Shown: in pieces, positions 33,597 to 55,425 of the stretch
Numbering within the stretch: the stretch's first letter is position 1
How the letters are laid out: every line of letters starts with the position of its first letter
Assembly: GCA_964016885.1 (NCBI GenBank)
Contig: OZ024761.1
Location: 8,184,001-8,248,000, forward strand
Length of the DNA: 64,000 bases
Origin: Eledone cirrhosa
Lineage: Eukaryota
Reading direction: 5' to 3'
The notes under the pieces: model-generated
Database searches by the model: none
What the model saw: the letters and a program-made list of their open reading frames with translations, nothing else
What the model was told of the DNA's origin: nothing
Made by a program: the position numbers and the translations under genes

Positions 33597-33832
33597 ATGT
33601 ATATATATATATATATACATTTATATATATATATACACACACATATATATATATACACATATATACATTTATATATATATACACACACACACATATATAT
33701 ATATACACATATATACATTTATATATATATACACACATATATATACACATATACATTTGAAAAAAAGAAAAAAATGACTTCACTTGTAGTGTTAAAAAAT
33801 TTTTGATTTAATTTTCTAATATTATAATATTA

Positions 33833-34713
33833 CTAGCTGACGTACTCTGCTTCGCCCAGGTAAACAGATGATAAGAGAAGACAGGTAAAAGAGAAAATGA
33901 CTGTATTGGATGTTTGTCTGGTTACAGTATGAGGCGAGTCCGTGGTGTCTGTGTGATACAAAAAACAGTAAACAAAATCTTCCAGATATACCAGATTCTT
34001 CGTTTACCGTTTGTGCATAGTATATGAACAATGCTAGGTGCTCCCACCTAGAATAGTGACCTCTAGGAGATGGTTCATCTTCTGCCTGACTGTAAACCAT
34101 GTATCATTGCATAGACATGGTTGTTCAACGTTTCTCAAAAGGATGATGGAAGTTCCAATCTTTTATATTATATGTACATATAGATATAGATAATTAATAT
34201 AAAAGATGTCCGTCAATGTAAAAAAAGGTCCCTATTCACTCCGTTCACAACACTGTGTATGTTAGACTGACAGACAGGCACAGACAGATAAACTGTGTGG
34301 CGATTGTGGGATGCCGCACGTACACACACATACACGCATGGAAATGCGCATACGCACGCAAACTTACACACATGCACACACTCACATGTTGATAGTTTTT
34401 ACTTTGTGGAACGCTGCATGCACGCACACACACACACAAACATATGCGCACGTACATACACACGCACACATGTTAATAGTTATTGCTTTCCTTCCCCTCT
34501 TATTTCCACACACACACACACACGTCTACACTGACACATATACATAGTGTTCACTTTGCCTCTCTCTCCCCTCTCACTCCCTCATTGGCATTATGCATAT
34601 TAATTTAAGTTTGGCGTTGTTGAGGTGGGCGGAGTCATTTGAAACCTATGATCCAATGATAATCGAGAATTATGACACACGGAATACTGACGTTGTTGAA
34701 ATTAATATATAGA
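33833..34713 (-). mobile_element. Non-autonomous Helitron-like element
   Basis: Minus strand begins A|TCtatatatt and ends ctgggcgaagcagagtacgtcagCTAG|T with a degenerate subterminal hairpin. Confidence 0.55.
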
Positions 34714-34947
34714 TAATAACGGACGAAAGTTCTTTGTTAACTTCGGTGGGAAGAATTTTAAAGATTCCTGGTTAACTTGGGTTGGAGAACTTTCTCGCAT
34801 TCATCTGTCTGTGGCGATTGTCAAACTGAGATCTCAGAGGCACATGGCTTAGTGGTGGATGGTGTCAGTGATGGTGATGGCAGTTGTTGTTGCTGCTGCT
34901 GTTGTTGTAGTTGTTGCTGCTGTGTTGAAATCTGGTCGCATCGAATG

Positions 34948-34999
<52 letters not shown>

Positions 35000-35040
35000 C
35001 ACATTGAACACAGAGAAAGGAGTTTAGCAACAGGTCTGTG

Positions 35041-35107
<67 letters not shown>

Positions 35108-35172
35108 CATATGTTGTAGTTGCTGCTGCTGCTGCTGTTGTTGTTGCTGTGTTGAAATCTGGTCGCATCGAC

Positions 35173-35224
<52 letters not shown>

Positions 35225-35478
35225 AGGATAACAAGGACGATTGATTACTCCTTCATTGCATTTATTGAAAGGTGACACGCGTTTCGCCACTGATCAGCTC
35301 AAGGTTCGATCTGTATTGATCCTACCCAACTCAATAATCGGCGGCTCGACGGACCCTTTAAAATGTTATCCTTTCAATATATTACACTCTGTATAGCTCT
35401 ACACCTCATCACAGAAGTGAACCTAAACATCGAGTGCTCTCCCGGGTGAACCTACAGTAACTCCTAGTTACACTCCCT

Positions 35479-35521
<43 letters not shown>

Positions 35522-35769
35522 AGTTTTATTTAAAATTGTTGGGTTACAACAAGTAAATATTTTATAACTGATATAAAGCACTCGACAAGTTTTGGCTTCC
35601 TACATAACGGTTGCTCAATATTTATGGTACGTCAAAATTATTTATAAAACTGTTTATATATTGTATTTTGTCTGAGGAAGGCATGCCATATTTTTGATAT
35701 GGTATCCCCGAAATATGTATAATGAAATAAATATGGTTTTATAAATATAGTTTCCATTTGTTTAATATC

Positions 35770-35814
<45 letters not shown>

Positions 35815-35857
35815 TACATATATATAGACACACACACATTCAACACAGGGAAAGGAG

Positions 35858-35900
<43 letters not shown>

Positions 35901-35901
35901 T

Positions 35902-35952
<51 letters not shown>

Positions 35953-36019
35953 TTGAACACAGGGAAAGGAGTTAGGAGTTTGTCAACAGGTCAGACATCT
36001 TAGTGTAGATAGGGTAATG

Positions 36020-36053
<34 letters not shown>

Positions 36054-36064
36054 GATATATATAT

Positions 36065-38222
36065 ATCATCATCATCAACGTTTAACGTCGTGTTCCACGC
36101 TTGCATGGGTTTGGACGGGGGTAGTCCCACTTGAGGCAAGAGTGATTGTCTTGCTCGCATAGGACTGTCTGGCAGGTTTTCTACAGTTGGATGCCCTTCC
36201 TAACACCAACCACATTTACAGTGTGGATCTGGGAGGTTTTTACTGTGTTGCCTACACGGCCACATTACAGCGTGAATTGTGTGTTTTTTTGTCGTGACAC
36301 CTACACGATCTCATTTGTTTCGGCCTGGATGGCGCGGCACCAACATAACTTTACATAGAACGGGGTGGTGTGGATGGGGTGGGGGTGGTGGCGGGACGGG
36401 GTGTATTTTGTTAGAGATGCCTACTGGCAAGGCGGGTCTTCTCTGTTACTGAGTACCGCCAAAGGTCTCGGTCCAGTGACATTGTCTTGGAGAGGTGCAA
36501 GTGTGTGAGGTCGGAGCTTATCAGCTCGTCCCAGGTTTTTCTAGGTCTGCCTATTCCGTGGCTACCGTCTATCTTTATTGCCCTGCACTTTGTTATACAG
36601 CTATCGACTTTCATGCGCATCACGTGTCCATACCAACGTAGCCTTCTCTCGAGTAAACAACATCTGATCCCTCTTATCTCTAATTTTTTCCTTAGTTCGT
36701 TTATGCTTTGCTGTTCACGTATATTACTGTTACACATCCAGCGGAGCATGCAAGCTTCGTTCCTCTCTAGTCTGCGTATATCCTCTGCACCCAATGCTCA
36801 GGTCTCACTGCCATGCAACATTGCTGTTCATATGCAGGCATCGTACAACCTGCCTTTCATTTTTAGGGAGAACCCTTTAGCAGCTAATAGTGGTATAAGC
36901 TCTCTGAACCTTTTCCAACCAGTTCTGACTCTAGCTACTGTACTTTCAGAGCACCCTCCCCCACTGCTGATTTTAATCGCCCAGGTAACGGAAGCTGTCC
37001 ACTATTTCTATAGAACCCTCTGCGCAATTGAAAGAGCTAGTATTTTGTGGGCACTTGCTGCTACTTATTGCACTAGAACACCGGCCACATGTAAAATCTA
37101 TGTTCTTAGTTAGCTTACCTGTGATCCCACTACATCTTTTATGCACCCATACTTTGCATTTAGGACATAAAATGGAGTTTCTACCTACGCCTTTCCTACA
37201 CACCGAGCACGACCATTTCCCAGAAGGGACCGCCGCCTTGTTTTCTTTCCTACAAACTAGAACTTTAGTCTTAGCCAGGTTAATTTTAAGTCCTTTTGAC
37301 TCTAGGCCGTGCTTCCATGTTTGGAATTTCTTCTCTAGCTCGGCCATTGATTCCGCTATGAGTGTCAGGTCGTCTGCGTATAGGAGTTCCCATGGGCAGC
37401 CGGTCTTGAACTCCTCTGTTATAGCCTGAAGGGCAATAATAAATAGTAGGGGGCTGAGAACAGAGCCCTGATGGACGCCAACTTTTACGCTAAACTCTTC
37501 ACTATATTCGTTGTTAATTCTAACCTTGCTGACCGTTTCTTTATACATGGCTTGTATAGCCCTCACAAGCCATTCGTCAACGCCTAGTTTTCTAAGAGCC
37601 CACCAGATAATGGAGCGGGGGACTCTGTCGACGGCTTTCTCCAAGTCGACAAAAGCTAAGTAGAGGGGTTTACCTTTAGCTAGGTACTTCTCCTGTAGTT
37701 GTCGTACTATGAAAAGAGCGTCTGTGGTACTTTTGCCTGACACAAACCCGAACTGCATTTCATCTAGGTCAATTCTCTCTCTGATTAGTTGCGCTATTAC
37801 TTTTTCCGTGACCTTCATGACCTGGTCGATTAATTTAATGCCTCTATAGTTACTCCTATCTAGGGCGTCTCCTTTACCCTTATAACAGTTAACGATGATG
37901 CTGCTATGCCAGTCCTTCGGAACAACCCCATTCTGTACGACTTGGTTAACTATGCGGGTGACCATGGTGTGTCCCACCGTGCCAGATGCCTTCAGCATCT
38001 CAGCAACTATTTCCGAAGGCCCAGCCGCCTTACCCGTCTTCATATCCTTGATTGCCTTACTTATTATACTCCCCTCGACTAACACTGCTGGTCCCTCTAT
38101 TGGATCGATATGGGGGAGACTGTCTTTCTCCGATTTATTCTCCTCATTTAGTAGCCTTTCATAGTGACACTTCCAAGCTACCTTCTTATCAGCGTCGGTG
38201 ATGGCAAGTATGCCATCATCGT
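36065..38222 (-). mobile_element. 5'-truncated RTE LINE family 2 (RT + Cys/His finger + long 3' UTR)
   Basis: AFVDLEKAVDRVPR, GVHQGSVLSPLLF, LLYADD; frameshifts near 36.8-37.0 kb; (atg)n tail. Confidence 0.95.
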
Positions 38223-38225
38223 TAA

Positions 38226-38269
<44 letters not shown>

Positions 38270-38552
38270 GATATGTGTATCGCTGAACAGATTTTACAGG
38301 CAGAAGCATCCTGGGCAAGATGGCTAGATAAGATTCATCAGTTGGATACACTTGCTTCTGATAAGACACACTGGAAGCAGTGTTTGAGGACTGTGACCCA
38401 ACAAATCCTCTCAGGAATAAGTGAGTGAAGACGAAGAAGACATATTTTGTTGTGCTCATAATTGTTTTGGCCTTAATACACTGGTTGCATGCCCTTCCTA
38501 ACACCAGTGCCACTTTACAGCATGGACTGGGTGCTTTTATTCGTGCCACCAG

Positions 38553-39086
38553 CACATATATATATACATATATATAAATATATACATATATATACATATA
38601 CATACATACATATACATATATACATATACATACATATACATACATACATATACATATACATACATACATATACATACATATACATATATACACATATATA
38701 CACATATACATATATACACATATATATATACATATATACACATATACACATATATATACATATATACACATACATATATATACATATATACACATACATA
38801 TATATACACATATATATACATATACATATATACACATATATATACATATACATATATACACATATATATACATATACATATATACACATATATATACATA
38901 TACATATACACACATATATATACATATACATATATATACATATATATACATATACATACATATACATATATATACATATATATACATATACATATATATA
39001 CATATACATATATATACATATACATATATATACATATACATATATATACATATATATACATATACATATACATATATATACATATA
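38553..39086. repeat. (TACATA/TA)n microsatellite; further tracts at 39695-40218 and 40833-40970
   Basis: Direct inspection. Confidence 0.95.
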
Positions 39087-39693
39087 TGGTGGCTGCCAAC
39101 TCGTTTTCGAGTACGGCCACTACTTTATATCCATATAGGAGAACCCCTACCGATGCGCTGAACGAGTGACATTTTAGTCCAGCCAGCGACTTGAAAACTC
39201 TGGTACAAACACTACACTTGTGACAAATATTGACACATAGTGCTGGGCCCATGGTACCCTGTGACGACAAGTGCAGAGAGATCTCCAGATATAAAGCAAT
39301 GCCTGTGCCGTGAAGCTTTTATAGTGAGCAAAGGCACTGCACAAAGCCAGTCCCACTCTCTTAACCAAGATGATATTTACCAAAAAGAAGAACAAGTCAA
39401 CATCATTGGATACCATCAGGGTTGCAGGTGTTATATCAGAGTTTTCCATCTCCTAGAATTCTGCCTTGACAAAGGCTAAGGGGTCATCTCTCCCGGTGAT
39501 TTTGGATGGCCATTGACTCTTAAGAGCTCCTTTGCCCTTTGACAGGTTTTGTTTTTAGTCCTGCAGGATGTCCAAAGTCACCCTCCTCACCAAGAAACCT
39601 TGGTGGGGTTGCCAGTTTAGTCGCCAACGACCCGACCATGGGTCAGGTTGTACTGGGATACATGTTACCAGTAGCACCAACTGGTGACCTGAC
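39085..39693 (-). mobile_element. Internally deleted (bipartite) RTE element, copy 1
   Basis: 5'-UTR-like ctaggagatggaaaactctga joined to C-terminal [15 protein letters not shown] finger and ctcgaaaacgag stem-loop tail. Confidence 0.7.
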
Positions 39694-40215
39694 ATAAATA
39701 TACATATATACACATATATATACATATATACACATATATATACATATATACACATATATATACATATATACACATATACACATATATATACATATATACA
39801 CATATATATAGATATACATATATACACATATATATACATATACATATATACACATATATATACATATATATACATATATATACATATACATATATATACA
39901 TATATATACATATACATATATATACATATATATACATATACATATATATACATATATATACATATACATATATATACATATATATACATATACATATACA
40001 TATACATATATATATACATATACATATATATACATATATATATATACATATACATATACACATATACATACATATACATACATATACATATACATATATA
40101 TATACATATACATATATATACATATACATATACATATATATACATATACATATATATACATATACATATATATATACATATACATATATATATATACATA
40201 TACATATATATATAC

Positions 40216-40828
40216 ATATGGTGGCTGCCAACTCGTTTTCGAGTACGGCCACTACTTTATATCCATGTAGGAGAACCTCTACCGATGCGCTGAACGAGTG
40301 TGACTTTTTAGTCCAGCCAGCGACTTGAAAACTCTGGTACAAACACTACACTTGTGACAATTATTGACACATAGTGCTGGGCCCATGGTACCATGTGACG
40401 ACAAGTGCAGAGAGATCTCCAGATATAAAGCAATGCCTGTGCCGTGAAGCTTTTATAGTGAGCAAAGGCACTGCACAAAGCCAGTCCCACTCTCTTAACC
40501 AAGATGATATTTACCAAAAAGAAGAACAAGTCAACATCATTGGATACCATCAGGGTTGCAGGTGTTATATCAGAGTTTTCCTTCTCTTAGAATTCTGCCT
40601 TGACAAAGGCTAAGGGGTCATCTCTCCCAGTGATTTTGGATGGCCATTGACTCTTAAGAGCTCCTTTGCCCTTCGACAGGTTTTGTTTTTAGTCCTGCAG
40701 GATGTCCAAAGTCACCCTCCTCACCAAGAAACCTTGGTGGGGTTGCCAGTTTAGTCGCCAACGACCCGACCATGAGACAGGTTGTACTGGGATACATGTT
40801 ACCAGTAGCACCAAGTGGTGACCTGACA
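40216..40828 (-). mobile_element. Bipartite RTE element, copy 2 (direct repeat of copy 1)
   Basis: Near-identical to 39085-39693. Confidence 0.75.
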
Positions 40829-40969
40829 CAAGTATATATACATATACATATATATATACATATACATATATATATACATATACATATATATACATATACA
40901 TATATATACACATATACATATACATATACATATATATATACATATATATACATATACATATATATACAT

Positions 40970-41086
40970 ATAGGAAAAAGTATGACCCAGACGGCAGAGC
41001 TCAAGCCGTTTCGACGGCTATTTCTGGACTGAAATAGCTGTCGAAATGGCTTGAGCTCTGCCGCCGGGGGTCATACTTTTTCCTAT
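40970..41086. repeat. About 55-bp-arm hairpin
   Basis: ataggaaaaagtatgaccc...gctatttc / gaaatagc...gggtcatactttttcctat. Confidence 0.9.
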
Positions 41087-41163
41087 TTCCCACTCTACTC
41101 CCCTAAGTATTGAGTACTCTGGTGCGTTATGGTCCATCTGGTTCCTTACCACAATTCCTTTGT

Positions 41164-41199
<36 letters not shown>

Positions 41200-41296
41200 A
41201 AATGAAGTAATTCCATCGGAAAAGTCCAGGAAAAAAGAGTGCTCTATGTAGGTAACAGAGCTTAATAGTTATGTAATAAACAACATAAGGCAATTA

Positions 41297-41357
41297 TTTC
41301 ATTTACCAGTGGTTTCTTAAAAGCAAAAAAATTTTGCTTTCAATCATCAGAATGAAA
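41297..41357 (-). ncRNA. Type I hammerhead ribozyme motif (left arm of palindrome)
   Basis: Reverse complement of 41422-41482. Confidence 0.65.
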
Positions 41358-41421
41358 AAATCCTGGTGTATTTATTGGCGTTGGTTTTTAAAATCCAACG
41401 CCAATAAATACGCCAGGATTT

Positions 41422-41482
41422 TTTCATTCTGATGATTGAAAGCAAATTTTTTTTGCTTTTAAGAAACCACTGGTAAATGAAA
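41422..41482 (+). ncRNA. Type I hammerhead ribozyme motif
   Basis: tttcatt-CTGATGA-[ttgaaagcaaa...tttgcttttaa]-GAAA-ccactgg-TA-aatgaaa; predicted cleavage after GUA at 41475. Confidence 0.7.
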
Positions 41483-41507
41483 TAATTGCCTTATGTTGTT
41501 TATTACA

Positions 41508-41553
<46 letters not shown>

Positions 41554-41588
41554 TATTGAAGTTTGCTTGAAGCATTGTGGAACAATAA

Positions 41589-42025
41589 GTAAATATTTAT
41601 AAGTCGTTTGGAAGCCTCGACAATGCAAATGGGTAAATCTCCGGGTAACAAGGTCCGGTGGTGGAGAGAGAGATATGTAAGTGGGTGTACGTTGAGATGC
41701 GTGGTGTGTATAAGATGTGTGAGATGTGTAGAATGAAGGGAAGAGTAAAAGGATAAAAATAATAATAACAACACAAGAGAGAGAGAGTTACCTTGGGAGA
41801 GATTTAATATTAAATCTCTCCCAAGGTAACTCTCTCTCTCTTGTGTTGTTATTATTATTTTTATCCTTTTACTCTTCCCTTCATTCTACACATCTCACAC
41901 ATCTTATACACACCACGCATCTCAACGTACACCCACTTACATATCTCTCTCTCCACCACCGGACCTTGTTACCCGGAGATTTACCCATTTGCATTGTCGA
42001 GGCTTCCAAACGACTTATAAATATT

Positions 42026-42028
<3 letters not shown>
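41589..42028. repeat. 440-bp spacerless palindrome
   Basis: Centre ttaat|attaa at 41808/41809; the ORF track shows the same peptide on both strands. Confidence 0.95.
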
Positions 42029-42056
<28 letters not shown>

Positions 42057-42094
42057 CATCATCACCGTCATTGTTGTAACATCTGCTTTCCCTA

Positions 42095-42780
42095 ATCAAC
42101 CCAAGTGCGTATGTCATGCAGAAGATAGAACATCTTGGTAGAGCAAGGGTTTTAAGGAAAGTCTTGTCTATGTAAGACACAGGATGCAGTGAGGGACCTT
42201 TGTCAACTTGTTGACTGCTCCCTAACTGAAATATCCAGATTGTTTAACATGTAAGAGTCTGAGATTTACAAAAATGAATAATAATTGTTTCTGATTCAGG
42301 GACAAAGCCAACAGCTTTTTTGAGGGAGGGGAAAGTCGATTAAATCGACCCCAATGCATTACTGGTGCGTTATTTTATCAACTCTGTAAGGATAGAAGGA
42401 AAAGCTAACCTTGGCAGGATTTGAACTTAGAACGTAAAGGGGTCATAACTATGCCACAAAGCATAGTGTCTGATGCTCTACCGATTCAGCCAATCTATTA
42501 ACAATATATTCCAGATGAGGCTGGATTATCAAAAGAGTTTATTGAGAAAAATGAATGATTGCAAAAAGAGAATCATTAAAAAAGAGAAAGCTGAAAGCAA
42601 GGAAGCGATGCTGTTATATGGTCAGTTTGAGAGGGACACAGAGGAAGTTAAGACAAAGGAATCATGGGATTGGCTAATTAGAGGAGATAGAAAGTTTGCT
42701 TATGGCTGCCGAGACCAGGCACTAAACATAAACTTAGAACGAGATAACATTTATAACGCCACTGTTGACAACAAAAGGTT
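42095..42780 (+). mobile_element. R4/Dong-like non-LTR fragments interrupted by a family-C SINE (42280-42495, minus)
   Basis: MQKIEHLGRARVLRKVL* and KESWDWLIRGD...DQALN resemble R4-clade C-terminal motifs. Confidence 0.5.
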
Positions 42781-42789
42781 TCTACCTAC

Positions 42790-43240
42790 ATACAAAAGGA
42801 CGACTCTATGATGGCTGTATGTAAAGTGCGATATTGCATGTCAATGAAAGATGGGCTGTGGCTGCAGAAGACGTGTAGACTGGAGAGAAATGAAGCAGTC
42901 ATGCTCTGTTGGATATGCAATGTAAATGTGAGAGAAAAGCAGAGCTTGGGTGAACTGGGGGAGAAACTGGGTTTAAGAGGAATCTGCGGTGGTGTGCAGG
43001 AGAGAAGACTGCGTTGATAAGTGATGTGCATGGATGATGATCGCTGGGTGAAGAAGTACAAGGAAATGCCAGTGGAGGGAAGCTGCAGTAGAGATAGACC
43101 AAGGTAGACCTAGGCAGAGGTAGTGAGAGCTGACCTTAGGTCACTAAAACTCACATAGCTGTAAAAAGGACATAGCAAGGGGAGAGATGCTGTACTGAAA
43201 AGGACCTGTCCAACTCATGTGTGGAAAAACAGACATAAAA

Positions 43241-43260
<20 letters not shown>
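42790..43260 (+). mobile_element. Diverged RTE family-1 3' fragment
   Basis: RLERNEAVMLCWICNVNVRE...GVQERRLR plus tail. Confidence 0.85.
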
Positions 43261-43272
<12 letters not shown>

Positions 43273-43418
43273 GGTGGTGATGAATCAAGTAGATTAAGGG
43301 AAGTGTAGGGTGTGTGGGGAAGGAGTTGAAGCTGTGCTGCACAATGGGAGTGCCTGTACAATAGTCACACAAAAAGATAAAAAAGGTATCCTGAAAAAAG
43401 TGAGTCATCTCCTGATGC

Positions 43419-43774
43419 TTAACCCTTTAGCATTCACATTATATATACTATTGTATTTTCATGGTAAAGGCTTTACCTCACATAATATCTCACATAACAT
43501 TTACATTACTCTATATATACTATTGTATTTTCATGGTAAAGGCTTTACCTCACATAATACCTCACATAACATTTACATTACTCTATATATACTATTGTAT
43601 TTTCATGGTAAAGGCTTTACCACGCATAATTATCTCACATAATATCGAATCTATGAGATTTTGAAAGTATTTATTTTGAGAACAATACCTTTTGTGACCA
43701 GTTACAGCCAGTTTCAACAGAAAAAGGTAGAGAATTCTGGCCGGTTTTGGCTGGTTTGAACATTAAAGGGTTAA
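43419..43774. mobile_element. TTAA MITE copy with internal tandem
   Basis: Same termini and body as 19913-20283. Confidence 0.8.
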
Positions 43775-43979
43775 GTCAAAAGTTCAGGTTTATAACTTGA
43801 AAATGGTGCCAGAATAAACTGGAAGATGCGACTTAATGAAAATACCCAAATTTTGTAGAATTTATGGTTCAAACAGAGAGAGTTATTCAGTACAGAAGAA
43901 CCCAATATCATTTTGATGGATAAGAAGATAAGAATGAGAAGTGTTAGATAATTGATGGAATAGTACTGGTGATATGAAA

Positions 43980-44320
43980 TCGCATGGCGTAGTGGTTAGA
44001 GCGCCAGGCTTACAATCATTAGATTGCGACTTCGATTCTCGGACCAGGCTTTGCGTTGTGTTCTTGAGCAAGACACTTTATTTCACATTGCTCCAGTTTA
44101 CTCAGCTGTAGAAATGAGTTGCTACATCATTAGTGCCAAGCTGTATCTGCCTTTCCCTTGGACAACATCGGTGGCGTGGAAAGGGGTGACTGGTATGTAT
44201 TGGGGACTGCTGTTCTTCCACAAACAACTTTGCCTGGACTTGTGCCTCGGAGGGGAACTTCCTAGGTGCAAATCCCATGGTCATTCAGGGCCAAAGGGGG
44301 TCTTTACCCTTTACCCTTAC
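43980..44320 (+). mobile_element. tRNA-head SINE family B
   Basis: tggcgtagtgg A-box, ttcgattc B-box, shared body, (ctttac)n-like tail. Confidence 0.8.
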
Positions 44321-44837
44321 TGGGGATGCGGGTGGGGTGGGGTGGAGTGAATCCTTTTATCAGAGGGAAGAAAAACGAAAACTTTGATGATTACTAAGTG
44401 GAGGGTTGAAATTGTTAGGGTGAAGGGCAAAAAAAAATGACCTTAAACCAGGTCTCGGGGTCGGTTATGGATAATACCCCCCCCCCCCTTCTTACCAAAC
44501 TCAACACAACTACTTGGCCCCTTGGGCAAATTTAACAGAGTCTCCATTGCAAGAATTCAAAGCAGGTCTCCAGTTTGAAGATAACTTACTCCCTTCATCA
44601 CACCTCTTTCAGAATCCCTGGGGGAGGGGGAAAGTCAATTAAATTGACCCCAGTGCATTACCGGTACTTTATTTTATCGACCCCGTAAGGATAAAAGGCA
44701 AAGTTAACCCCACCAGGATTTGAACTCAGATTGTAAAGGGGAGTAACTGCCACGAAGCATGTTGTCCGACACTCTACCGGTACTGCTAATCCACATTGAT
44801 ATGAATTAGATTAAAATCACATCTATTGAATGTCATT

Positions 44838-46190
44838 AACTGTTGTCTTGGTAACTGCTGCTGTTGGTGTTGGTGGTGTCTTGATAACTGCTGCTGTTGG
44901 TGGTGGTGTCTTGATAACTGCTGCTGTTGGTGGTGGTGCCTTGATAACTGCTGCTGGTACCTTGATAACTGCTGTTGGTGGTGGTGGTGGTGGTGTCTTG
45001 ATAACTGCTGCTGTTGGTGGTGGTGGTGTCTTGATAACTGCTGCTGTTGGTGGTGGTGTCTTGATAACTGCTGCTGTTGGTGGTGTCTTGATAACTGCTG
45101 CTGTTGGTGGTGGTGGTGGTGGTGTCTTGATAACTGCTGCTGTTGGTGGTGGTGTCTTGATAACTGCTGCTGTTGGTGGTGGTGGTGTCTTGATAACTGC
45201 TGCTGTTGGTGGTGGTGGTGTCTTGATAACTGCTGCTGTTGCTGGTGGTGGTGTCTTGATAACTGCTGCTGTTGCTGGTGGTGGTGTCTTGATAACTGCT
45301 GCTGTTGGTGGTGGTGGTGTCTTGATAACTGCTGCTGTTGCTGGTGGTGGTGTCTTGATAACTGCTGCTGTTGGTGGTGGTGGTGTCTTGATAACTGCTG
45401 CTGTTGCTGGTGGTGGTGTCTTGATAACTGCTGCTGTTGGTGGTGTTGGTGGTGCCTTGATAACTGCTGCTGTTGGTGGTGTTGGTGGTGTTTTGATAAC
45501 TGCTGCCGTTGGTGGTGTTGGTGGTGCCTTGATAACTGCTGTTGGTGGTGGTGGTGGTGGTGTTAACTGCTGCTGTTGGTGGTGCCTTGATAACTGCTGC
45601 TGTTGGTGGTGGTGTCTTGATAACTGCTGCTGTTGGTGGTGGTGGTGTCTTGATAACTGCTGCTGTTGGTGGTGGTGGTGTCTTGATAACTGCTGCTGTT
45701 GGTGGTGGTGGTGTCTTGATAACTGCTGCTGTTGGTGGTGGTGGTGTCTTGATAACTGCTGCTGTTGGTGGTGTCTTGATAACTGCTGCTGTTGGTGGTG
45801 TTGGTGGTGCCTTGATAACTGCTGCTGTTGGTGGTGTTGGTGGTGTTTTGATAACTGCTGCTGTTGGTGGTGTTGGTGGTGCCTTGATAACTGCTGCTGT
45901 TGGTGGTGGTGGTGTCTTGATAACTGCTGCTGTTGGTGGTGGTGGTGGTGGTGCCTTGATAACTGCTGCTGTTGCTGGTGGTGGTGCCTTGATAACTGCT
46001 GCTGTTGGTGGTGGTGCCTTGATAACTGCTGTTGTTGTTGGTGGTGGTGCCTTGATAACTGCTGTTGTTGTTGGTGGTGGTGCCTTGATAACTGCTGTTG
46101 TTGTTGGTGGTGGTGGTGGTGCCTTGATAACTGCTGTTGGTGGTGGTGGTGGTGGTGGTGGTGTTGTTAACTGCTGCTGATGGTGGTGTT
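44838..46190. repeat. About 30-bp minisatellite (cttgataactgctgctgtt(ggt)n)
   Basis: About 42 units built from triplets. Confidence 0.95.
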
Positions 46191-46688
46191 AGCTGTTTTC
46201 TGTGTGCAGATATTTCTCAAGTGGACACATTCCCATGTGTCTGCAGCTAGGGGAGATGAACCAATCCTAGCAAAACTTTTGTTTTTGTTAGACTAAAACG
46301 TAAATGTCTGAGACTGCTGTGACTGGTTTCATCTTAGATAGAGGGGAGTGTTAGGTGCGAGGAGAGGAGGGGGAGAGAGAGGGAGGATAGCTATGATGAG
46401 TGGGGGGGGGGGGGTGATAGCAAGAAATAGTGAGGAAGGGAAGGAGAAAAAGAGGAAGTGGTGGCTAGAAATAGTGAGGGAGGGAAGGAGAAAGAGAGGA
46501 AGTGGTGGCTAGAAATAGTGAGGGAGGGAAGGAGAAAGAGAGGAAGTGGTGGCTAGAAATAGTGAGGGAGGGGGAGAGAGAGAGTGAGACAGTAAGGGGA
46601 TGAGTGATAACAAGATATATATATATATATATACCCTAAGTATATATATATATATTTAGTTATGTCATAAACAACATAAGATAATTAT

Positions 46689-46748
46689 TTCATTTACCAG
46701 TGGTTTCTTGAAGGCAGATATTCACATGTCTTCAGTCATCAGAATGAA
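46689..46748 (-). ncRNA. Type I hammerhead ribozyme motif, divergent copy
   Basis: ttcatt-CTGATGA-[ctgaagaca...tgccttcaa]-GAAA-ccactgg-TA-aatgaa. Confidence 0.6.
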
Positions 46749-46821
46749 TAAATAACATCTATCTGTGGCCTACATAGAGCACTCTTTTCCTCTACCTTTC
46801 CTATGGGAATACTTCATTTAT

Positions 46822-46865
<44 letters not shown>

Positions 46866-46974
46866 AGAGAGAGGGGTGACCAACTTTTCAAAAGACAAAC
46901 AGAAAACAAGAGTGAGTTTCAGAGACGAAAGAAACAAAGATAGATGTGTGTTTGTACATGTATGTTATTTCCAT

Positions 46975-48196
46975 CCATTACTGATACTGTCTGTCAGTCA
47001 CAACTCCTGGTAGAAGAAAGGAGCTGATCATCAGATCAGACCAAAGAAACAATGTTTATATTGGTCTTTCCATTACTGATACTATCTGCCAGTCACAACT
47101 CCTGGCAGAAGAAAGGAGCTGATCATCAGATCAGACCAAGGAAACAATGTTTCCATTGGTCTTTCCATTACTGATACTGTCTGTCAGTCACAACTCCTGG
47201 CAGAAGAAAGGAGCTGATCATCAGATCAGACCAAAGAAACAATGTTTCCATTGGTCTTTCCATTACTGATACTGTCTGTCAGTCACAACTCCTGGCAGAA
47301 GAAAGGAGCTGATCATCAGATCAGACCAAAGAAACAATGTTTCTATTGGTCTTTCCATTACTGATACTGTCTGTCAGTCACAACTCCTGGCAGAAGAAAG
47401 GAGCTGATCATCAGATCAGACCAAAGAAACAATGTTTCCATTGGTCTTTCCATTACTGATACTGTCTGTCAGTCACAACTCCTGGCAGAAGAAAGGAGCT
47501 GATCATCAGATCAGACCAAAGAAACAATGTTTCTATTGGTCTTTCCATTACTGATACTGTCTGTCAGTCACAACTCCTGGCAGAAGAAAGGAGCTGATCA
47601 TCAGACCAGACCAAAGAAACAATGTTTCCATTGGTCTTTCCATTACTGATACTGTCTGTCAGTCACAACTCCTGGCAGAAGAAAGGAGCTGATCATCAGA
47701 TCAGACCAAAGAAACAATGTTTCTATTGGTCTTTCCATTACTGATACTGTCTGTCAGTCACAACTCCTGGCAGAAGAAAGGAGCTGATCATCAGATCAGA
47801 CCAAAGAAACAATGTTTCCATTGGTCTTTCCATTACTGATACTGTCTGTCAGTCACAACTCCTGGCAGAAGAAAGGAGCTGATCATCAGATCAGACCAAA
47901 GAAACAATGTTTCCATTGGTCTTTCCATTACTGATACTGTCTGTCAGTCACAACTCCTGGCAGAAGAAAGGAGCTGATCATCAGACCAGACCAAAGAAAC
48001 AATGTTTCCATTGGTCTTTCCATTACTGATACTGTCTGTCAGTCACAACTCCTGGCAGAAGAAAGGAGCTGATCATCAGATCAGACCAAAGAAACAATGT
48101 TTCCATTGGTCTTTCCATTACTGATACTATCTGTCAGTCACAACTCCTGGCAGAAGAAAGGAGCTGATCATCAGATCAGACCAAGGAAACAATGTT
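46975..48196. repeat. 95-bp tandem repeat, about 13 near-identical copies
   Basis: ccattactgata at 46975, 47070, 47165 and onward. Confidence 0.95.
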
Positions 48197-49789
48197 GCGG
48201 GTGGTTATCCTTTCATGTGACTTCAGGTGATTAACATAACCAGCCTTTTAGAGGAGTACACGCTGACAGAAATTTCATCTCCAACTACTGATGACTTCTT
48301 CAAGACTGTGAGCACAGCCCTTCCGGGCCTGACGCTTCAGTTGTTTATGTTCTAGATGACATTCCTCAAAAGTTTTGCAACTACTCTTTATGCACTTTCT
48401 TCACTCAGCTATCTCCTCCTAACTTAAAGCTATCTCCTCCCAGTTGTCTATATCAAATGCCAGCTCTTTGAGGTTGTTCTTGATGCTGCCCTTGTACCTC
48501 ATTTTCGGTTTGTGTTGAGGCCTTTTTCCAAGATGGAGCTCACCGTAAAAGAGTTGCTTCGGGATCCTGTTTTCTTTCATGCAGACGATATGTTCTGTCC
48601 AGCGCATTTGAGAAGATGTTACTAGAGACTCAATGGACATTCTGCTTTGATAAGGACATGGATGGCAGGAGGTCTGTCTTGCTACTTGATGTTGAATATG
48701 CCTTAGACATTTCTGTTGAAAACGCTCAAGCAATTTGGTGTGTTCGTAGAATAACATCCAGGTTTCGGCTAAGTATAAAAGAGCAGACAGAACACTTGAT
48801 CTATACACACATGTAATTTGCCCAAACTCTCATTCCCAATTTTCCGAAGGCAACAGAGGCCTTCTGGATGCGCAGATGTATTTCAGCACCCAAGGAGCCA
48901 TCATTTGAGAGTGGGCAACCCAAGTAGACAAAGTTATCTACTACTCCCAACCTGGTTCCATCAACCATAATATTGGGTTCAGTATATGGTCCTCCAGGAG
49001 AAGGGGTAAACATTACTTTGGTCTTTTTAAGGCTGATTGGAAACCCAAATGCTGTACACAAGGATGAGAAACGGTCCATAATGTGTTGCATGTCAGCTTC
49101 TGTGCGTGTTAGGTAGTCAGCATAAAGAAGGTCTTTAATCAAAGCTTGAAAAGTCTTGGCATTAAACCTTCTTAAGTTGAAAACCTTTCCAGTAGTTCTG
49201 AACCGTAAAAGAATGCCTCTGTCACAATCATACGAATATGTGTGAGCAAGACAGCCAAGAAGATGGAGAAAAGCGTAGGATCAGGAATATCACCTTGCTT
49301 TACCCCGTCGTCAATTAGGATTTTCCCAGATAGTTGATCATTGAAGGTAACTCGAGCTTTCATATTTCTCTGCAACTGCTTTAGAATTCTCACAAACTTG
49401 GGTGAACATCCTACTTTTCCAAGTATTATCCAGAGTGCCTCTCTGTTAACTGTATCAAAGGCCTTCATTAGGTCGACAAAGACTTGATATAGAGAGACAG
49501 ACTGCTCAATGCATTTTTCTTGTATTTGTCTTACAGAGAAATCATGTCAACTGTTCGCCTTCCTCTCCTAAAACCACTCTGTGATTCTGGGATAGCTATA
49601 GGACAGATATCCTCCTCCAGTCTGTGGAGCAAAAGTCTTGCAAGAACCTTGCCAACAGCTTCCAACAAAGTGATGCCACAGTAGTTTCCACATATCGATT
49701 TTTCACCTTTGCCTTTGTAAATGACAACAGAATACCGTTGATCCAGTCTTGCGGAACCGGGATCCCATTCCAGAAATCAATGATGAAGT

Positions 49790-50137
49790 TCATCATCATC
49801 ATTTTACGTCCGCTTTTCCCTGCTTGCAAGGGTGGGACGGGAACTGATTTTGGCTTGATTTCTACAGCTGGATGCCCTTCCTAACACCAACTTCATTTAC
49901 AGTGAGTGCTGGGTGCTTTTTTTGCCGTGGCACCTCCACGACCACTTTACAGTATGGGCTGGGTGCATTTTTGCCATGGCACCTCCATGTCCACTTTGCA
50001 GTGGAATGATAGGGACCCCAGTCCCTATCCTCTCATTTCTACAGCTGAGTAAACTGGAGCAATGTGAAATAAAGTGTCTTGCTCAAGGAAACAACACATC
50101 ACCCGGTCTGAGAATTGAACTCACAACCTTTCGATTG
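49790..50137 (-). mobile_element. SINE family A nested in the LINE
   Basis: Reverse complement of 19159-19492, 5' end clipped. Confidence 0.9.
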
Positions 50138-50497
50138 TTTATTGATTCTGTTACATTATCACCACCGACTTTCAGCAGTTCGACTGGGATACCATTTGGA
50201 CCTGATGCCTTGCCAGAGTTAACCTGCTTGACTGTCAGCTTTATTTCATCAACAGAGAGAAGTCTGTTTCATATTGAGGAAGGCCCTCTATCACTCTAAA
50301 ATTAACTGCTGATGGGTTGTCAAACAGGTCAGTAAAATGTTCCTCCCAATGTTGAAGGATTTTTGATGGCTCTTTGATGATGATATTGGTAACATCCTTA
50401 GATCTCAGAGGAGTTACTAAGGATGTTAGTGGGCCGAAGACTTGGCGTATCAATGAGTAAAATGACTTTGAATCTTTGGTATTAAAAGCCTCTCGAT

Positions 50498-50785
50498 GTA
50501 AAGTTATGTTGGTACCACAACATCCAGTCCTAAATAAATGAGGTCATGTAGGTGTCACAACAAAAAAAACACAGTCCACGCTGTAATGTGGCTGTGTAGG
50601 TAACACGGTAAAAACCTCCCAGTCCACACTGTAAATGTGGTTGGTGTTAGGAAGGGCATCCAGCCGTAGAAAACCCGCCAGACAGTCCTATACGAGCAAG
50701 ACAACCAATCTTGCCTCAAGTGGGAAAATTCCCGCCCAAACCCATACTAGCGTGGAAGATGGACATTAACCGATGATGATGATGA
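50498..50785 (+). mobile_element. RTE family-2 3' UTR fragment nested in the LINE
   Basis: Homologous to 58090-58390. Confidence 0.85.
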
Positions 50786-52391
50786 TATTACTCCATCACT
50801 CATTCTGCATCCTGCACAGTTTGCGTTGCAGTGTTGCCTTGTAATCTTTGTAGGCTTTCCTGACAGCTGGTTGTGCTACGGGATTCTGATTCAGGAGCTT
50901 TTCATAGAATGTGTGTTTGGTTTTCAGTTGCTGATTGATATTAGGATTGTTGTCATCGAACCAGTCTTGATGTTTCTTGGTTCTGAAGCCAAGTACTTCA
51001 GCTCCTACTGAGTAAACTTGAACTCTAAAGTTTTCCCAGGTACCATCAAAATCAAGACTATCAAATCTTTCCATTAGGGTTGCATGCACATCTGCTTGCC
51101 TCAGTTTGGTGACATCAATGCGTTTCAGTGCTTTCACTTCACTCATACAAATTCTTTTGCGGATACTCATCTTGAACTTTCCTCACACTAATTTGTGGTC
51201 AGTACCACATTATACACTACGCTACACACGCACTGTACACACATCACTTAGATTTCTTTTATGAGTGATGATGAAATCAATCATGTGTCCATGCTTGGAT
51301 CTTGGAGAATACAAGGTAGCTTTATATTTGAGCTTCTGACAGAAAAGAGTGTTGCAGATGGTTAAGTAAAGTCCTGAGCAGAGTTCAAGCAACCTCAGGC
51401 CACTGGTGTTCATTTTACCAATACCAAATAGACCAATGGCGCCTCATGTGTCATGGCCACTACCCACACAAGCATTAAAATCACCGAGAAGTAATAATTT
51501 ATCGTCAGCAGGTGTGCATGCTATGACAACAGGAAGAGACTCATAGAAAGAATCAAGGACCATCTCACTGGCCTGTAGAGTTGCTACATAAACAGATAGT
51601 GTTACGTAACAGCCATGTCTCAGAGGAATACAAAGCTTCATAATGTGATCAGTTATACCAGTAGGACATTCTATATGATCAAGCAGGGATGTTCTAATTG
51701 TGAAGCCAACACCGCCCTCTCTCCATTCAGCAATAGGTTTAACTACCCAAAAAAGAGAAAAGCCTGATGATACTTCTGTTAATTGATCTTCTTCTCAAGT
51801 GAGGCAAAGTAAGCTCTGGGAGCTTGTGTGTAGACTTGTGACTATAAGCTTCCAACTGGTCAGGCACACACACACACAGACAAACACACTGACACACACA
51901 AACACAGACATCAACACACAGTCACACAGACACACAGATCAACACACAGTCACACAGACACAGCAGCCAACACACATATGTTCATGGAATAAGAAATAAT
52001 AAGAAAGAAACACTGACTAAAACCAGATAAGATAAGAAACACTGATTGACTTCTTAACACTCCTGGTACAATTATTAAATATGCTTGGCTAATTCTCAGC
52101 TTTAGTTTCAAGTCATCTGATTAAGAACCATTTCTCAATTTCTAGTTTCAAGTAATCTGATTAAAAATCATCCATCTCTCAAATCTAGTTTCAAATCATC
52201 TGATTAAAAACCATTTCTCAATGTCTAGTTTCATGTAAACAGTGTAATGGGAAGTTGGAAAAAGGTTGCAAAGCAACATTATAAGAAAAAAAAAAAAAAA
52301 CACAAGATAAAAAAAAAATACACCTGCATTTGATGACAACATTGATGTAGAGTTTGAAACTAAAGAATTAACAGATTTAACAAAATCTCCA

Positions 52392-53286
52392 CTAACCCTA
52401 TAATGTTCAAACCGGCCAAAACCTGCCAGAATTCTCTACCTCTTTCTGTTGAAACTGGCTGTAACCGGTCGCTCAAACTGATGTTAAGGTATTGTTCTCA
52501 AAATAAATACTTTCAAAATCTCATAGATTCGATATTCATCATCATCGTTTAACGTCTATCTTCCACACTAGCATGGGTTTAGACGGGAATTGTCCCACTT
52601 GAGGCAAGATTGGTTGTCTCGCTCGTATGGGACTGTCTGGCAGGTTTTCTATGGCTGGATGCCCTTCCTAACACCAACCACGTTTACAGTGTGGACTGGG
52701 ACGTTTTTACCGTGTTACCTACACGGCTGCATTACAGCATGGACTGTGTGTTTTTTTTTTTTTTTGTTGTGACACCTACACGACCTCATTTATTTCGGAC
52801 TGGATGTTGTGGTACCAACATAACTTTACAGAGAGGGGGGGTGGGGGTGATGGGGGGGTGATGGGGGAGGGGTAGTGGGAGGGGGGGTATATTTGGTTAG
52901 GAGGTGCCTACTGACTGTAAGTTTCGCATTGTACTTAGGCAAGGTGGGTCTTCTGTATTACTGTGTAGCGCCAAAGATCTTGGTCCAGTGACATTGTCTT
53001 GGAGAGGTGCAAGTGTGTGAGGTCGAAATTTATCAAATCGTCCCAAGTTTTTCTGGGTCTACCTACTCCGTAACTTCCATCAATTTTGATCGCCCGGCAC
53101 GTTTTTATACAGCTGTCGTCTTTCGTGCGTATCACGTGGCCATACCAACGCAGCCGTCTCTCGAGTAAACAGCATCTGACCCCTCTTATACCTAATTTCT
53201 CACATGTGAGATAATTATGTGAAATAAAGCCTTTACCATGAAAATATAATAGTATATATAGAGTAATGTGAATGCTAAAGGGTTAA
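52392..53286. mobile_element. TTAA MITE split by an RTE family-2 3' fragment (52536-53200, minus)
   Basis: MITE halves end gattcgatatt and resume atgtgagataatt...aaagggttaa. Confidence 0.8.
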
Positions 53287-53311
53287 CATCAAGAGCTAAA
53301 CAAATCAATAG

Positions 53312-54640
53312 ACTTCTTTGCCCACGTATTCCATGAGGGGTGATGGGAGCAGAGTCCTTAAGCATGCCTCCCAGCAGGTTCTATCAGAGGCAACTGTCTC
53401 AAATTGATATGACTGGATCTCCAAGTGAAACCAGCCATGCTCATGGATGTTATCCAACAATCTTGTTTGGGTCTTCTGCCAATTGGTTTAGTCCATAAAA
53501 TCTGTCCAATGATTCTTTCCTGAGACATCCTAACTACATATCTGTAGTAGTGGAGCTGTGATATCTCAATTTGGAGAAATAGCAGCTCTACCTGGCGTGA
53601 CTTTCTGATTTCTGAGCTACAAATCTGTCCAACAATTCTTTCTTCAGATATTCTAACCACCAGTCTGTAATATCGGAGCTGTGATCTCTCAATTTGGAGA
53701 AATAGCAGCTCTACCTGGCGTGACTTTCTGTTTTCTGAGCTACAAATCTGTCCAACAATCCTTTCTTCAGATATTCTAACCACCAGTCTGTAATATCGGA
53801 GCTGTGATCTCTCAATTTGGAGAAATAGCAGCTCTACCTGGCGTGACTTTCTGTTTTCTGAGCTACAAATCTGTCCAACAATCCTTTCTTCAGATATTCT
53901 AACCACCAGTCTGTAATATCGGAGCTGTGATCTCTCAATTTGGAGAAATAGCAGCTCTACCTGGCGTGACTTTCTGTTTTCTGAGCTACAAATCTGTCCA
54001 ACAATCCTTTCTTCAGATATTCTAACCACCAGTCTGTAATATCGGAGCTGTGATCTCTCAATTTGGAGAAATAGCAGCTCTACCTGGCGTGACTTTCTGT
54101 TTTCTGAGCTACAAATCTGTCCAACAATTCTTTCTTCAGATATTCTAACCACCAGTCTGTAATATCGAAGCTGTGATCTCTCAATTTGGAAACATAGTGG
54201 AGTGACTATCTGGAGTGACTCTCTGATTTCCTAGCTACACATCTGTCCAACAATTCTTTCTTCAGATATTCTAACCACCAGTCTGTAATATCGAAGCTGT
54301 GATCTCTCAATTTGGAAACATAGTGGAGTGACTATCTGGAGTGACTCTGATTTCCTAGCTACAAATCTGTCCAACAATTCTTTCTTCAGATATTCTAACC
54401 ATCAGTCTGTAATATCGGAGCTGTGATCTCTCAATTTGGAAACATAGTGGAGTGACTATCTGGAGTGACTCTCTAATTTCCTAGCTACAAATCTGTCCAG
54501 TGTTTCTTTCCTGTGACATTCTAACCATATGCTGTAATATTGGAGCTATGATCTCTCAATTTTGAGTAGTGGTGGCTTTACCTGGAGTGACTCCCCGATC
54601 TCAGAGCTACACACTATCAAGTAACATTACTCAAAAAACC
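53312..54640 (-). mobile_element. RTE 3' fragment with 117-bp coding segment tandemly amplified (about 9 copies)
   Basis: Repeated RQVELLFLQIERSQLRYYRLVVRISEERIVGQICSSENRKS; unamplified relative at 59930-60230. Confidence 0.85.
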
Positions 54641-55425
54641 CTTCAAAGGAACTGAAGGGGATCTTATCAACCAAAAATGCAAATGTTCCCAGTGGATTGT
54701 GAGAACGTTTTTTTTTTTTTTTTATCAACTGGTGCCTGCGTCTGTTTTCCACAAGATTAACATGATTTCACTCACACAAAGACAAAATCTCCACAGACAC
54801 TTCAACAACACAATACAATATGGATTCACTGCCATCACTACTTAAATCACTATTATTTTATTGCATCTCTGCACAAGCCAAAATGAAATGGTAGAGGCAA
54901 GCTCTACAAAACTTTAACCCTTTAGCATTTAAACTAGCCATATCTGTTCAAACTGGCTGTAACCGGCCACTCATACTTATGTTAAGGTATTGTTCTCAAA
55001 ATGAATAACATCAAAATCTCAAAGATTCAATATTATGTGAGGTAAAGACTTTACCGTGAAAATACAATAGTATATATAGAGTAATATAAATGGTAAAGGG
55101 TTAAAGATACGGGAGTGAAATAACCAAGGCAGCTGTAAAGCAAGAATATATGGAAGATCTTACCAGATGGCGCTGGTTTAGCTCTGGCAAAATGAAACCA
55201 GGAACTGGAAATGTTCCCTAAAAGAATGACCAATCAATATGGTGCCAGAGGTAATTAGAAAAAGACAAAAAGACATATAAGAGGGAAATAAAATAAAAAC
55301 AGAATACACAACATCAGAAAAAGGGTTTATAACATTGGGAAAGCAACAATAACAAAAAGGGAGTAGTGTAGTGAATATGAAGAGTTGTGAGATATGTAGC
55401 AAATGACGGAGAAGTTTTTTGTTTT

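What the first reader, a model, noticed from the sequence alone, without database searches (positions are those of the whole stretch)
46657..46824. Third hammerhead copy with a rewritten stem II and a shared leader
Seen: this minus-strand copy keeps CTGATGA, GAAAccactggTA, stem I and the downstream ttatgttgtttat tail. Stem II has a different sequence that still pairs (tgaagaca/tgccttca). Its leader (46763-46820) matches the reverse complement of 41198-41258, so the unit is leader + hammerhead + tail, about 170 bp, and at 41.2 kb an inverted hammerhead sits between leader and ribozyme. Structure kept despite sequence change argues for selection on the RNA fold. It again abuts (TA)n.
Basis: partly seen in the sequence, partly recalled or inferred. 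Interest (0 to 1): 0.75.

Follow-up and report, generated by a model that had tools for sequence, protein, structure and literature searches.

The report
Hydra-clade Penelope retroelement end with hammerhead
This is a short repeated scrap of DNA in an octopod gene intron that carries a hammerhead-ribozyme motif and is most likely the leftover end of a known kind of jumping element (Penelope-like, Hydra clade); the supposed 'leader' is really the element's downstream end turned backwards, and it holds a predicted RNA hairpin shared with elements of coral, sea cucumber and sea louse.

Summary
The hammerhead is real: the core is intact and a strict descriptor finds 3 hits in the window against 0.005 per shuffled window. 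Two readings need correcting. Stem II is not rewritten: 5 of 9 pairs are identical, 1 is compensatory, 1 changes on one side and 2 are broken, and this copy folds worse than the 41.2 kb copies. The 'leader' is backwards. In related sequencing runs its inner end joins the tail end on the opposite strand (528 of 2731 reads, 14 of 1113 contigs), as at 41.2 kb, and no listed piece spans this copy's own junction. Read the right way it is a ~65-bp extension beyond the tail. Inverted arms, a one-sided extension, (TA)n targets, palindromic stem III and a hairpin also found at the ends of published Hydra-clade consensus sequences point to a 5'-truncated Penelope-like insertion in an octopod AKAP10 intron. 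No coding region was reached. Selection on the fold shows between subfamilies, not on this copy. New leads are the cross-phylum hairpin and a family-specific 15-bp helix predicted to lock the ribozyme. Cleavage is untested.

The parts
46657..46758 (-). Long arm: 16 nt upstream, hammerhead, 38-nt tail; ends at (TA)n
   Evidence: reads and contigs of other copies align over 46655-46758 and stop there (table 8)
46689..46748 (-). Type I hammerhead motif: stem I 46748-46743 with 46694-46689; CUGAUGA 46742-46736; GAAA 46707-46704; predicted cut between 46695 and 46694 (GUA)
46708..46735 (-). Stem II: C.A at the 10.1-11.1 position (no variant listed in other copies of this subfamily), 7 of 8 further pairs, variable loop 46726-46717
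46696..46704 (-). Stem III, a near-palindrome; predicted self-duplex -8.2 kcal/mol, suited to a dimeric ribozyme; 8 of 9 letters as in Hydra-1_oBim
   Evidence: File S2 of PMC8557442
46660..46679 (-). Predicted 6-bp tail hairpin next to the short end
46762..46820 (+).
   Evidence: (tables 5, 7)
46762..46784 (+). Hairpin motif shared with Hydra-clade consensus ends; first two letters lost at this copy's junction
46797..46809 (+). Predicted 5-bp hairpin with variable 3-nt loop
46810..46820 (+). End of the extension, complementary to the cut-site region (predicted lock helix; 14 of 15 in the 41.2 kb copy)
46614..46656 (.). (TA)n target run (interrupted) at the short end
46825..46873 (.). (GA)n run beyond the extension end; other copies have (TA)n here
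   Evidence: table 7
41196..41511 (.). Sibling insertion of the other subfamily between two (TA)n runs: extension 41198-41264, arm 41265-41389 (hammerhead on minus), arm 41390-41511 (hammerhead on plus); 3 differences in 123 bp, no spacer
32987..55163 (-). Host intron (AKAP10-like gene, minus strand) that holds all three copies
   Evidence: GT/AG ends, frame joins across the intron

Best explanation
The stretch is two head-to-head pieces of one repeat family, a 102-bp arm with a hammerhead motif and tail and a 59-bp inverted arm, and is most likely the 5'-truncated end of a Hydra-clade Penelope-like retroelement inserted at (TA)n. Shown: the anatomy, the multi-copy family, the common layout hammerhead > ~38-nt tail > ~65-nt extension > (TA)n, and a hairpin motif matching Hydra ends. 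Inferred, by analogy to the Anolis element studied in vitro (PMC11167929): the element's RT-endonuclease nicks both strands of the TA-rich target and starts reverse transcription at two internal sites of the uncut RNA, about 38 and about 106 nt after the ribozyme cut site. Both cDNAs stop early and are joined head to head. Here one ran back through the ribozyme and the other copied only the extension; at 41.2 kb both stopped at the same place. The two stem II versions are inferred to be two source subfamilies on which the fold was selected. This copy has since likely drifted and is predicted to be a poor ribozyme.
For: Joints tail end (46655-46660) to 46762-46769 on opposite strands: 528 of 2731 reads in X7 and 14 of 1113 contigs in X1; X4 record 12 shows the same layout; none of the 14 listed pieces spans 46758-46762 (1131 not shown). 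Loose ends at both outer ends are (TA)n: 136 reads and 13 contigs at 46821, 29 contigs at 46657-46660. Other joints show arms cut at several places, equal and unequal. Inverted 5'-truncated copies and a one-sided extension are the described Penelope-like signature; Hydra families target (TA)n, carry hammerheads, and one is listed from Octopus bimaculoides. The host is an octopod. The 11-letter word of the extension occurs twice in the 584,131-character supplement, both at Hydra consensus ends. By eye, 4 of 6 Hydra consensi in File S7 carry the hairpin, 39, 44 and 48 nt after the cut site in three (43 here) and at the 5' start in one. Consensus ends lie 36, 46, 47 or 88, 97, 116 nt after the cut; here 36-39 and 106. 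Three neighbouring (TA)n-bounded palindromes at 40.97-42.03 kb each have a one-sided extension, and 35222-35480 has this copy's lopsided layout.
Against: No RT or GIY-YIG region is reached; the RT frames in the window are RT+PHD LINE-type, so the clade rests on non-coding ends only. The extension is ~65 bp, longer than the 30-40 bp described. This copy's extension end abuts (GA)n. A short shared word at its junction fits deletion of an inverted arm after insertion equally well. The motif was defined after seeing the sequences. The lowest-energy fold of the hairpin is not the bulged register in any of the three window instances. Pair-keeping among read variants is weak evidence: 11 of 13 (p 0.025) only if partner variants are linked, 9 of 13 (p 0.22) otherwise.
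Confidence: 0.8

Rival explanations
1. A non-autonomous derivative: a short Hydra-derived element that is itself transcribed and mobilised in trans, with no full-length parent of the same sequence.
For: All pieces seen are short; two X4 contigs put the palindrome centre about 7 nt upstream of 46758 (records 9 and 12, my arithmetic); no frame is open across the whole 193-nt arm; non-autonomous Penelope-like elements are described.
Against: Arms are cut at several different places (table 5); most Penelope-like hammerheads occur as truncated single copies. It shares the integration mechanism with the best explanation and differs only in the source RNA.
Confidence: 0.3
2. Same element, but this copy's layout arose after insertion, by collapse of a 41.2 kb-type palindrome that deleted the inverted hammerhead arm.
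For: Short shared letters at the junction; long perfect palindromes are deletion-prone (general knowledge); the (TA)n beyond the extension is missing here.
Against: 35222-35480 and an X1 contig (46685 to 46762 with 25 letters between) show unequal arms with clean (TA)n or tail ends.
Confidence: 0.25
3. A monomer of a non-LTR retrozyme, a tandem repeat whose transcripts are cut hammerhead to hammerhead and circularised.
For: Type I hammerhead with a weak, palindromic stem III; retrozymes occur in a mollusc and as solo monomers.
Against: None of the 15 listed joints goes back head to tail; both outer ends run into (TA)n; no tandem array of the unit in the window.
Confidence: 0.06
4. One reading: leader + hammerhead + tail in one orientation, with an inverted hammerhead later inserted at 41.2 kb.
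For: It is the layout of this copy; the leader starts with letters resembling the cut site.
Against: 528 reads and 14 contigs show the other layout and no listed piece shows this one; the Hydra-type motif reads in the opposite direction.
Confidence: 0.04
5. A host-adopted intronic ribozyme that cuts the AKAP10 pre-mRNA.
For: The ribozyme is in the sense of the pre-mRNA; core intact.
Against: Predicted fold probability 0.0004 in its own context; mismatch next to the core; multi-copy family; orientation is a coin toss.
Confidence: 0.04

Closest known systems
Hydra-clade Penelope-like elements (Craig et al. 2021, PMC8557442), e.g. Hydra-1_Obim, Hydra-1/2_Ajap, Hydra-2_Amil, Hydra-1_Crog
   Same: (TA)n target; hammerhead near the 3' end with palindromic stem III and 7-8 bp stem II; ends at about 36-47 or 88-116 nt after the cut; shared hairpin motif; inverted truncated arm
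   Different: Different family from Hydra-1_Obim (the stem III word of this family has 0 hits in the supplement); no ORF seen; Y.A at the base of stem II (U.U or U.C in several Hydra, C.A in the Chlamys-group PLE-X1_cBra); lock helix not seen by eye in the 3 Hydra consensi with long ends
Poseidon element PAc of Anolis carolinensis (Frangieh et al. 2024, PMC11167929)
   Same: Hammerhead followed by two element ends that define a tail; AT-rich targets
   Different: There the ORF starts inside the ribozyme and the tail is 30-40 bp; here the ATG of the core is not conserved (N7 varies) and the extension is ~65 bp
Minimal hammerheads of metazoan Penelope-like elements (Cervera and De la Pena 2014, PMC4209133)
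   Same: Long helix II, short palindromic helix III suited to dimers, mostly dispersed single motifs, opposite-strand pairs 100-700 bp apart
   Different: Lacks the G10.1-C11.1 pair that paper calls highly conserved; keeps a 3-4 bp helix III
Non-LTR retrozymes (PMC7229834; bioRxiv 10.64898/2026.07.22.740005)
   Same: Short non-coding repeat with a type I hammerhead, Penelope-related
   Different: Inverted, (TA)n-bounded insertions, not head-to-tail arrays

Membership tests
Type I hammerhead ribozyme | Core C3 U4 G5 A6 N7 G8 A9, G12 A13 A14, A15.1-U16.1, H17 | tested here: met
   0 of 12 core positions vary in read variants
Type I hammerhead ribozyme | Three helices around the core, stem I open-ended | tested here: met
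   stem I 6 bp, stem II 7 of 8, stem III 3 bp; not the lowest-energy fold in this copy
Type I hammerhead ribozyme | Watson-Crick pair at 10.1-11.1 | tested here: not met
   C.A here, U-A at 41.2 kb; such a mismatch was a rejection rule in PMC3088659 but occurs in listed Penelope-like hammerheads
Type I hammerhead ribozyme | Match to an Rfam hammerhead model | tested here: not met
Type I hammerhead ribozyme | Loop 1 - loop 2 tertiary contact | not tested
   none looked for
Type I hammerhead ribozyme | Self-cleavage | not testable with these tools
   needs an assay
Hydra-clade Penelope-like element | Insertion into (TA)n | tested here: met
   short end here; both ends at 41.2 kb and in reads; this copy's other end abuts (GA)n
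Hydra-clade Penelope-like element | Hammerhead close to the 3' end | tested here: met
   36-39 and 106 nt from the two ends against 36-47 and 88-116 in 6 of 6 File S7 consensi (counted by eye)
Hydra-clade Penelope-like element | Inverted 5'-truncated copy and one-sided extension | tested here: met
   the extension is longer than the 30-40 bp described
Hydra-clade Penelope-like element | Sequence kinship with known Hydra ends | tested here: met
   7 + 14 identical letters around a variable loop with the 5' start of Hydra-1_Ajap; word found only at two Hydra ends
Hydra-clade Penelope-like element | RT with C-terminal GIY-YIG, DKT motif, no CCHH | not testable with these tools
   arms too short; no genome held; no relatives in the collections
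Hydra-clade Penelope-like element | Partial tandem forming a pLTR | tested here: inconclusive
   no tandem in the window or in the listed joints; the stretch laid was only 172 bases
Non-LTR retrozyme | Head-to-tail tandem repeats | tested here: not met
Non-LTR retrozyme | Circular RNA monomers | not testable with these tools
   no RNA run was laid
MITE / fold-back DNA transposon | Symmetric terminal inverted repeats at both ends | tested here: not met
   one arm carries a 65-bp extension, arms vary in length

The most novel reading that the evidence does not exclude
Hydra-clade elements carry an undescribed conserved RNA hairpin just past the first reverse-transcription start site, kept by covariation across molluscs, cnidarians, echinoderms and arthropods, that positions the RT. 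In this octopod family the RNA end also folds back over the cut site in a 15-bp helix, so the ribozyme is switched off in exactly the RNA that is copied.
Probability: 0.35. Interest if true: 0.65.

Novelty: new member of a known kind. Interest (0 to 1): 0.38.

Why it matters
Hammerheads in Penelope-like elements are known and their role is stated to be unclear; the one element tested in vitro uses uncut RNA. This locus itself is an ordinary truncated insertion. It does yield two testable leads: a candidate RT-positioning hairpin shared across four phyla, and a predicted helix that would explain how an intact ribozyme core is kept yet not used during copying. It also gives a short signature for classifying ORF-less (TA)n-bounded palindromes in octopod genomes.

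Tried and rejected
Own genome: none held, so no genome-wide alignment or R-scape test. Rfam: no hammerhead match. Pattern scans: 0 hits in metagenome contigs and 0 in prokaryote genomes. 4 viral loci and 25 further loci were checked: 0 of 25 have a hammerhead core upstream or (TA)n, so they served as a chance control, with 2 of 25 showing an upper stem of 3 bp or more. Sequencing runs: no RNA holder listed, which says nothing on expression; run X5 gave 0 reads laid (no test). The pile of read ends at 46683-46686 in X7 sits on an AATT word of a RAD library and is treated as a library artefact (inference). Summed depths were not used as copy numbers. One search had the tail hairpin misregistered and is replaced. 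The arm counts for the 41.0 and 41.8 kb palindromes used wrong centres and are discarded in favour. The idea that the leader is the 3' product of an upstream hammerhead was dropped: its likeness to the cut site is the reverse complement of the lock helix. No frame is open across the whole arm. Earlier findings: nothing shown. Literature; no listed title or abstract opening mentions the hairpin, only the papers named in the report were opened, 'hairpin' has 0 hits in PMC8557442 and its supplement text, and subscription papers, figures and Repbase were not searched.

Full report
Observation. The minus strand at 46657-46824 holds a type I hammerhead motif as described: stem I of 6 bp, CUGAUGA, a 28-nt stem II domain, GAAA, a 3-bp stem III, a GUA triplet, a 38-nt tail and (TA)n. 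A strict descriptor finds 3 sites in the window, the two at 41.3-41.4 kb and this one, against a mean of 0.005 in 200 shuffles. The 61-bp match to 41199-41259 is real (83.6%). Rfam lists no hammerhead family here.

Stem II. On the three-copy alignment, 5 of 9 pairs never vary, 1 changes on one side, 1 on both, and 2 are broken in this copy; 163 of 500 shuffles reach the same covariation score. Identity to the 41.4 kb copy is 7/7 and 13/13 in the core blocks, 13/18 in the stem II arms, 3/10 in its loop and 28/31 in the tail. Predicted fold probability is 0.03 here and 0.18 in the other two. So the loop is rewritten, not the stem, and this copy is the weakest.

Other copies. Four coded runs were laid on 46655-46826 at 80% likeness: 0 reads from X5, 5 contigs from X4, 1113 from X1, 2731 reads from X7. 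I scored the 40 substitution rows shown (2 more were not shown). They touch 0 of 12 core positions, 12 of 80 paired and 19 of 69 unpaired positions (p 0.026); within the ribozyme, 0 of 12 core against 9 of 16 unpaired (p 0.003). N7 varies among U, C and A in the rows, and G in a loose-end consensus. Of 13 variant-pair cases, 9 keep pairing outright, 2 only if linked to a partner variant, and 2 break; transitions alone keep pairing in 48 of 88 cases, so this is weak (p 0.025 or 0.22). The A.C mismatch in stem II is A-U or G-C in other copies (inferred from read counts, unphased), while the C.A next to the core has no listed variant and appears to be the subfamily state. Copies share ancestry and the structure was drawn partly from these sequences, so the p values are indicative. 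The picture is two subfamilies whose source elements kept the fold, and a copy that has drifted.

The leader is backwards. Nine of the 15 joints listed link the tail end (46655-46660) to 46762-46769 on the opposite strand: 528 of 2731 reads in X7 and 14 of 1113 contigs in X1. This is the layout at 41.2 kb. None of the 14 listed pieces spans 46758-46762 (1131 not shown). Loose ends beyond 46821 are (TA)n in three runs, and those before 46657-46660 are (TA)n in two. No joint goes back head to tail and none lies at the cut site. So the family end reads hammerhead, tail, about 65 nt of extension, (TA)n, and insertions are two arms head to head, one ending at the tail and one at the extension. Other joints show arms cut at several places. 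In the window, three palindromes between (TA)n runs at 40972-42028 each have a one-sided extension of about 80, 70 and 43 bp, and 35222-35480 has a long hammerhead arm plus a short inverted arm, like this copy.

Host and place. The exon at 27967-29103 is closest to Octopus bimaculoides AKAP10 (62% over 99%; 8 hits among 8000 candidates). Exons run on the minus strand, and GT/AG ends with a matching frame put all three copies in the intron 55163-32987. The RT frames in the window are RT+PHD (2 of 19 frames scanned, plus one RT fragment) and are not Penelope-type by domain content.

What is known. Craig et al. 2021 (PMC8557442; abstract, sections 6, 11 and 15, passages, supplement parts 2, 52 and 53 of 59, supplement searches; figures not seen) describe inverted 5'-truncated copies and a 30-40 bp one-sided tail as the Penelope-like signature, and the Hydra clade as (TA)n-targeting with hammerheads, including a family from O. 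bimaculoides whose stem III differs from ours by one letter. Mismatches at the base of stem II are common in that table, with C.A in PLE-X1_cBra. Cervera and De la Pena 2014 (PMC4209133; parts 1-2 of 4) report long helix II, palindromic helix III, dimer function and low activity. Frangieh et al. 2024 (PMC11167929; parts 1-2 of 4) show a Poseidon protein cutting and extending both strands, starting reverse transcription at two internal sites that bound the tail, and using uncut RNA. Retrozymes are tandem (PMC7229834, passages and section 14; bioRxiv 10.64898/2026.07.22.740005, parts 1-3 of 5, supplements not seen). PMC13282606 (passages) lists 31 recently active Penelope-like families in O. vulgaris. 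PMC3088659 (passages) treats a 10.1-11.1 mismatch as a ground for rejection while noting U.U exceptions.

Clade assignment. An 11-letter word of the extension occurs twice in the whole supplement, both times at a Hydra consensus end and after the same 5' arm. By eye, 4 of the 6 consensi in File S7 carry the hairpin: 39, 44 and 48 nt after the cut in three of them (43 here), and at the 5' start of Hydra-1_Ajap, which shares 7 + 14 letters around a variable loop. The other two end before that position. Consensus ends fall 36, 46, 47 or 88, 97, 116 nt after the cut; here 36-39 and 106. The upper stem differs in sequence and still pairs for 3 bp or more in 6 of 7 instances (4 read by eye, 3 in the window, two of one family) against 2 of 25 chance matches. 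In the window the motif occurs 3 times, each in such an extension. It was defined after the fact, and the bulged register is not the lowest-energy fold. Without an ORF the assignment is strong but indirect.

Lock helix. At 41.2 kb the last 15 nt of the extension complement the cut-site region at 14 of 15; 0 of 1000 shuffles reach this anywhere. The tail plus extension folds at z -4.8, 0 of 200 shuffles (z -4.4 with the ribozyme). Adding the last 18 nt lowers the predicted hammerhead probability from 0.024 to 0.000004. This copy's two pieces can form the same duplex. Against generality: I did not see it by eye in the 3 Hydra consensi with long ends or in the 41.0 kb element, and it could be a relic of an old inversion. 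It is a prediction only.

Mechanism. Shown: anatomy, family layout, target, motif. Inferred: double-strand nicking at (TA)n, two internal starts, early stops and head-to-head joining; dimer-dependent, low activity; drift of this copy. Whether the source RNA is a full element or a short derivative, and whether this copy's lopsided form arose at insertion or by later deletion, stay open.

Verdict. A new family of a known kind. Interest 0.38, carried by the shared hairpin and the lock helix, which I did not find in print in the searches named under Tried and rejected.

Noticed in passing
window 40972-41165: (TA)n-bounded palindrome with a ~80-bp right extension; the arms hold only the 3' half of a different hammerhead (GAAAC, 5-bp stem III, GUC) and the extension has the same Hydra-type hairpin at 41090-41120.
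   Followed up: partly
window 41549-42028: Near-perfect palindrome (99% over 434 bp) with a 43-bp left extension between (TA)n runs; no hammerhead core; two words from it had no hit in the Naiad/Chlamys/Hydra supplement.
   Followed up: partly
window 35222-35480 (minus): (TA)n-bounded hammerhead-like piece with C at position 8 (CTGATCA), palindromic stem III, and a short inverted arm of tail end plus ~104-bp extension; no Hydra-type hairpin.
   Followed up: partly
window 35517-35770 (plus): (TA)n-bounded piece with a further hammerhead-like motif at 35672 (long stem II, AT-only stem III); the hammerhead is not its lowest-energy fold.
   Followed up: partly
window 434-55217 (minus): At least nine exons of an AKAP10-like gene; the ~22-kb intron holds all these insertions. 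The long palindromes would form double-stranded RNA in the pre-mRNA, possible A-to-I editing substrates (recalled knowledge, untested).
   Followed up: partly
window 3550-4446 (+), 36976-38334 (-), 49175-49546 (-): LINE-type reverse transcriptase frames, two with a PHD finger after the RT.
   Followed up: partly
window 39088-39691 and 40220-40835: A ~610-bp segment duplicated in tandem, each copy flanked by long TA/CA-rich runs.
   Followed up: no
window 14593-14994: Older palindrome (82% over 412 bp) starting 8 bp from a (TA)n run.
   Followed up: no
L003 3001-3048 (viral contig): A well-folding type I hammerhead with the same stem III word; unrelated flanks, likely an independent phage ribozyme.
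   Followed up: no
window 46634-46641: A single TTAGGG-containing interruption inside the (TA)n run next to the tail.
   Followed up: no
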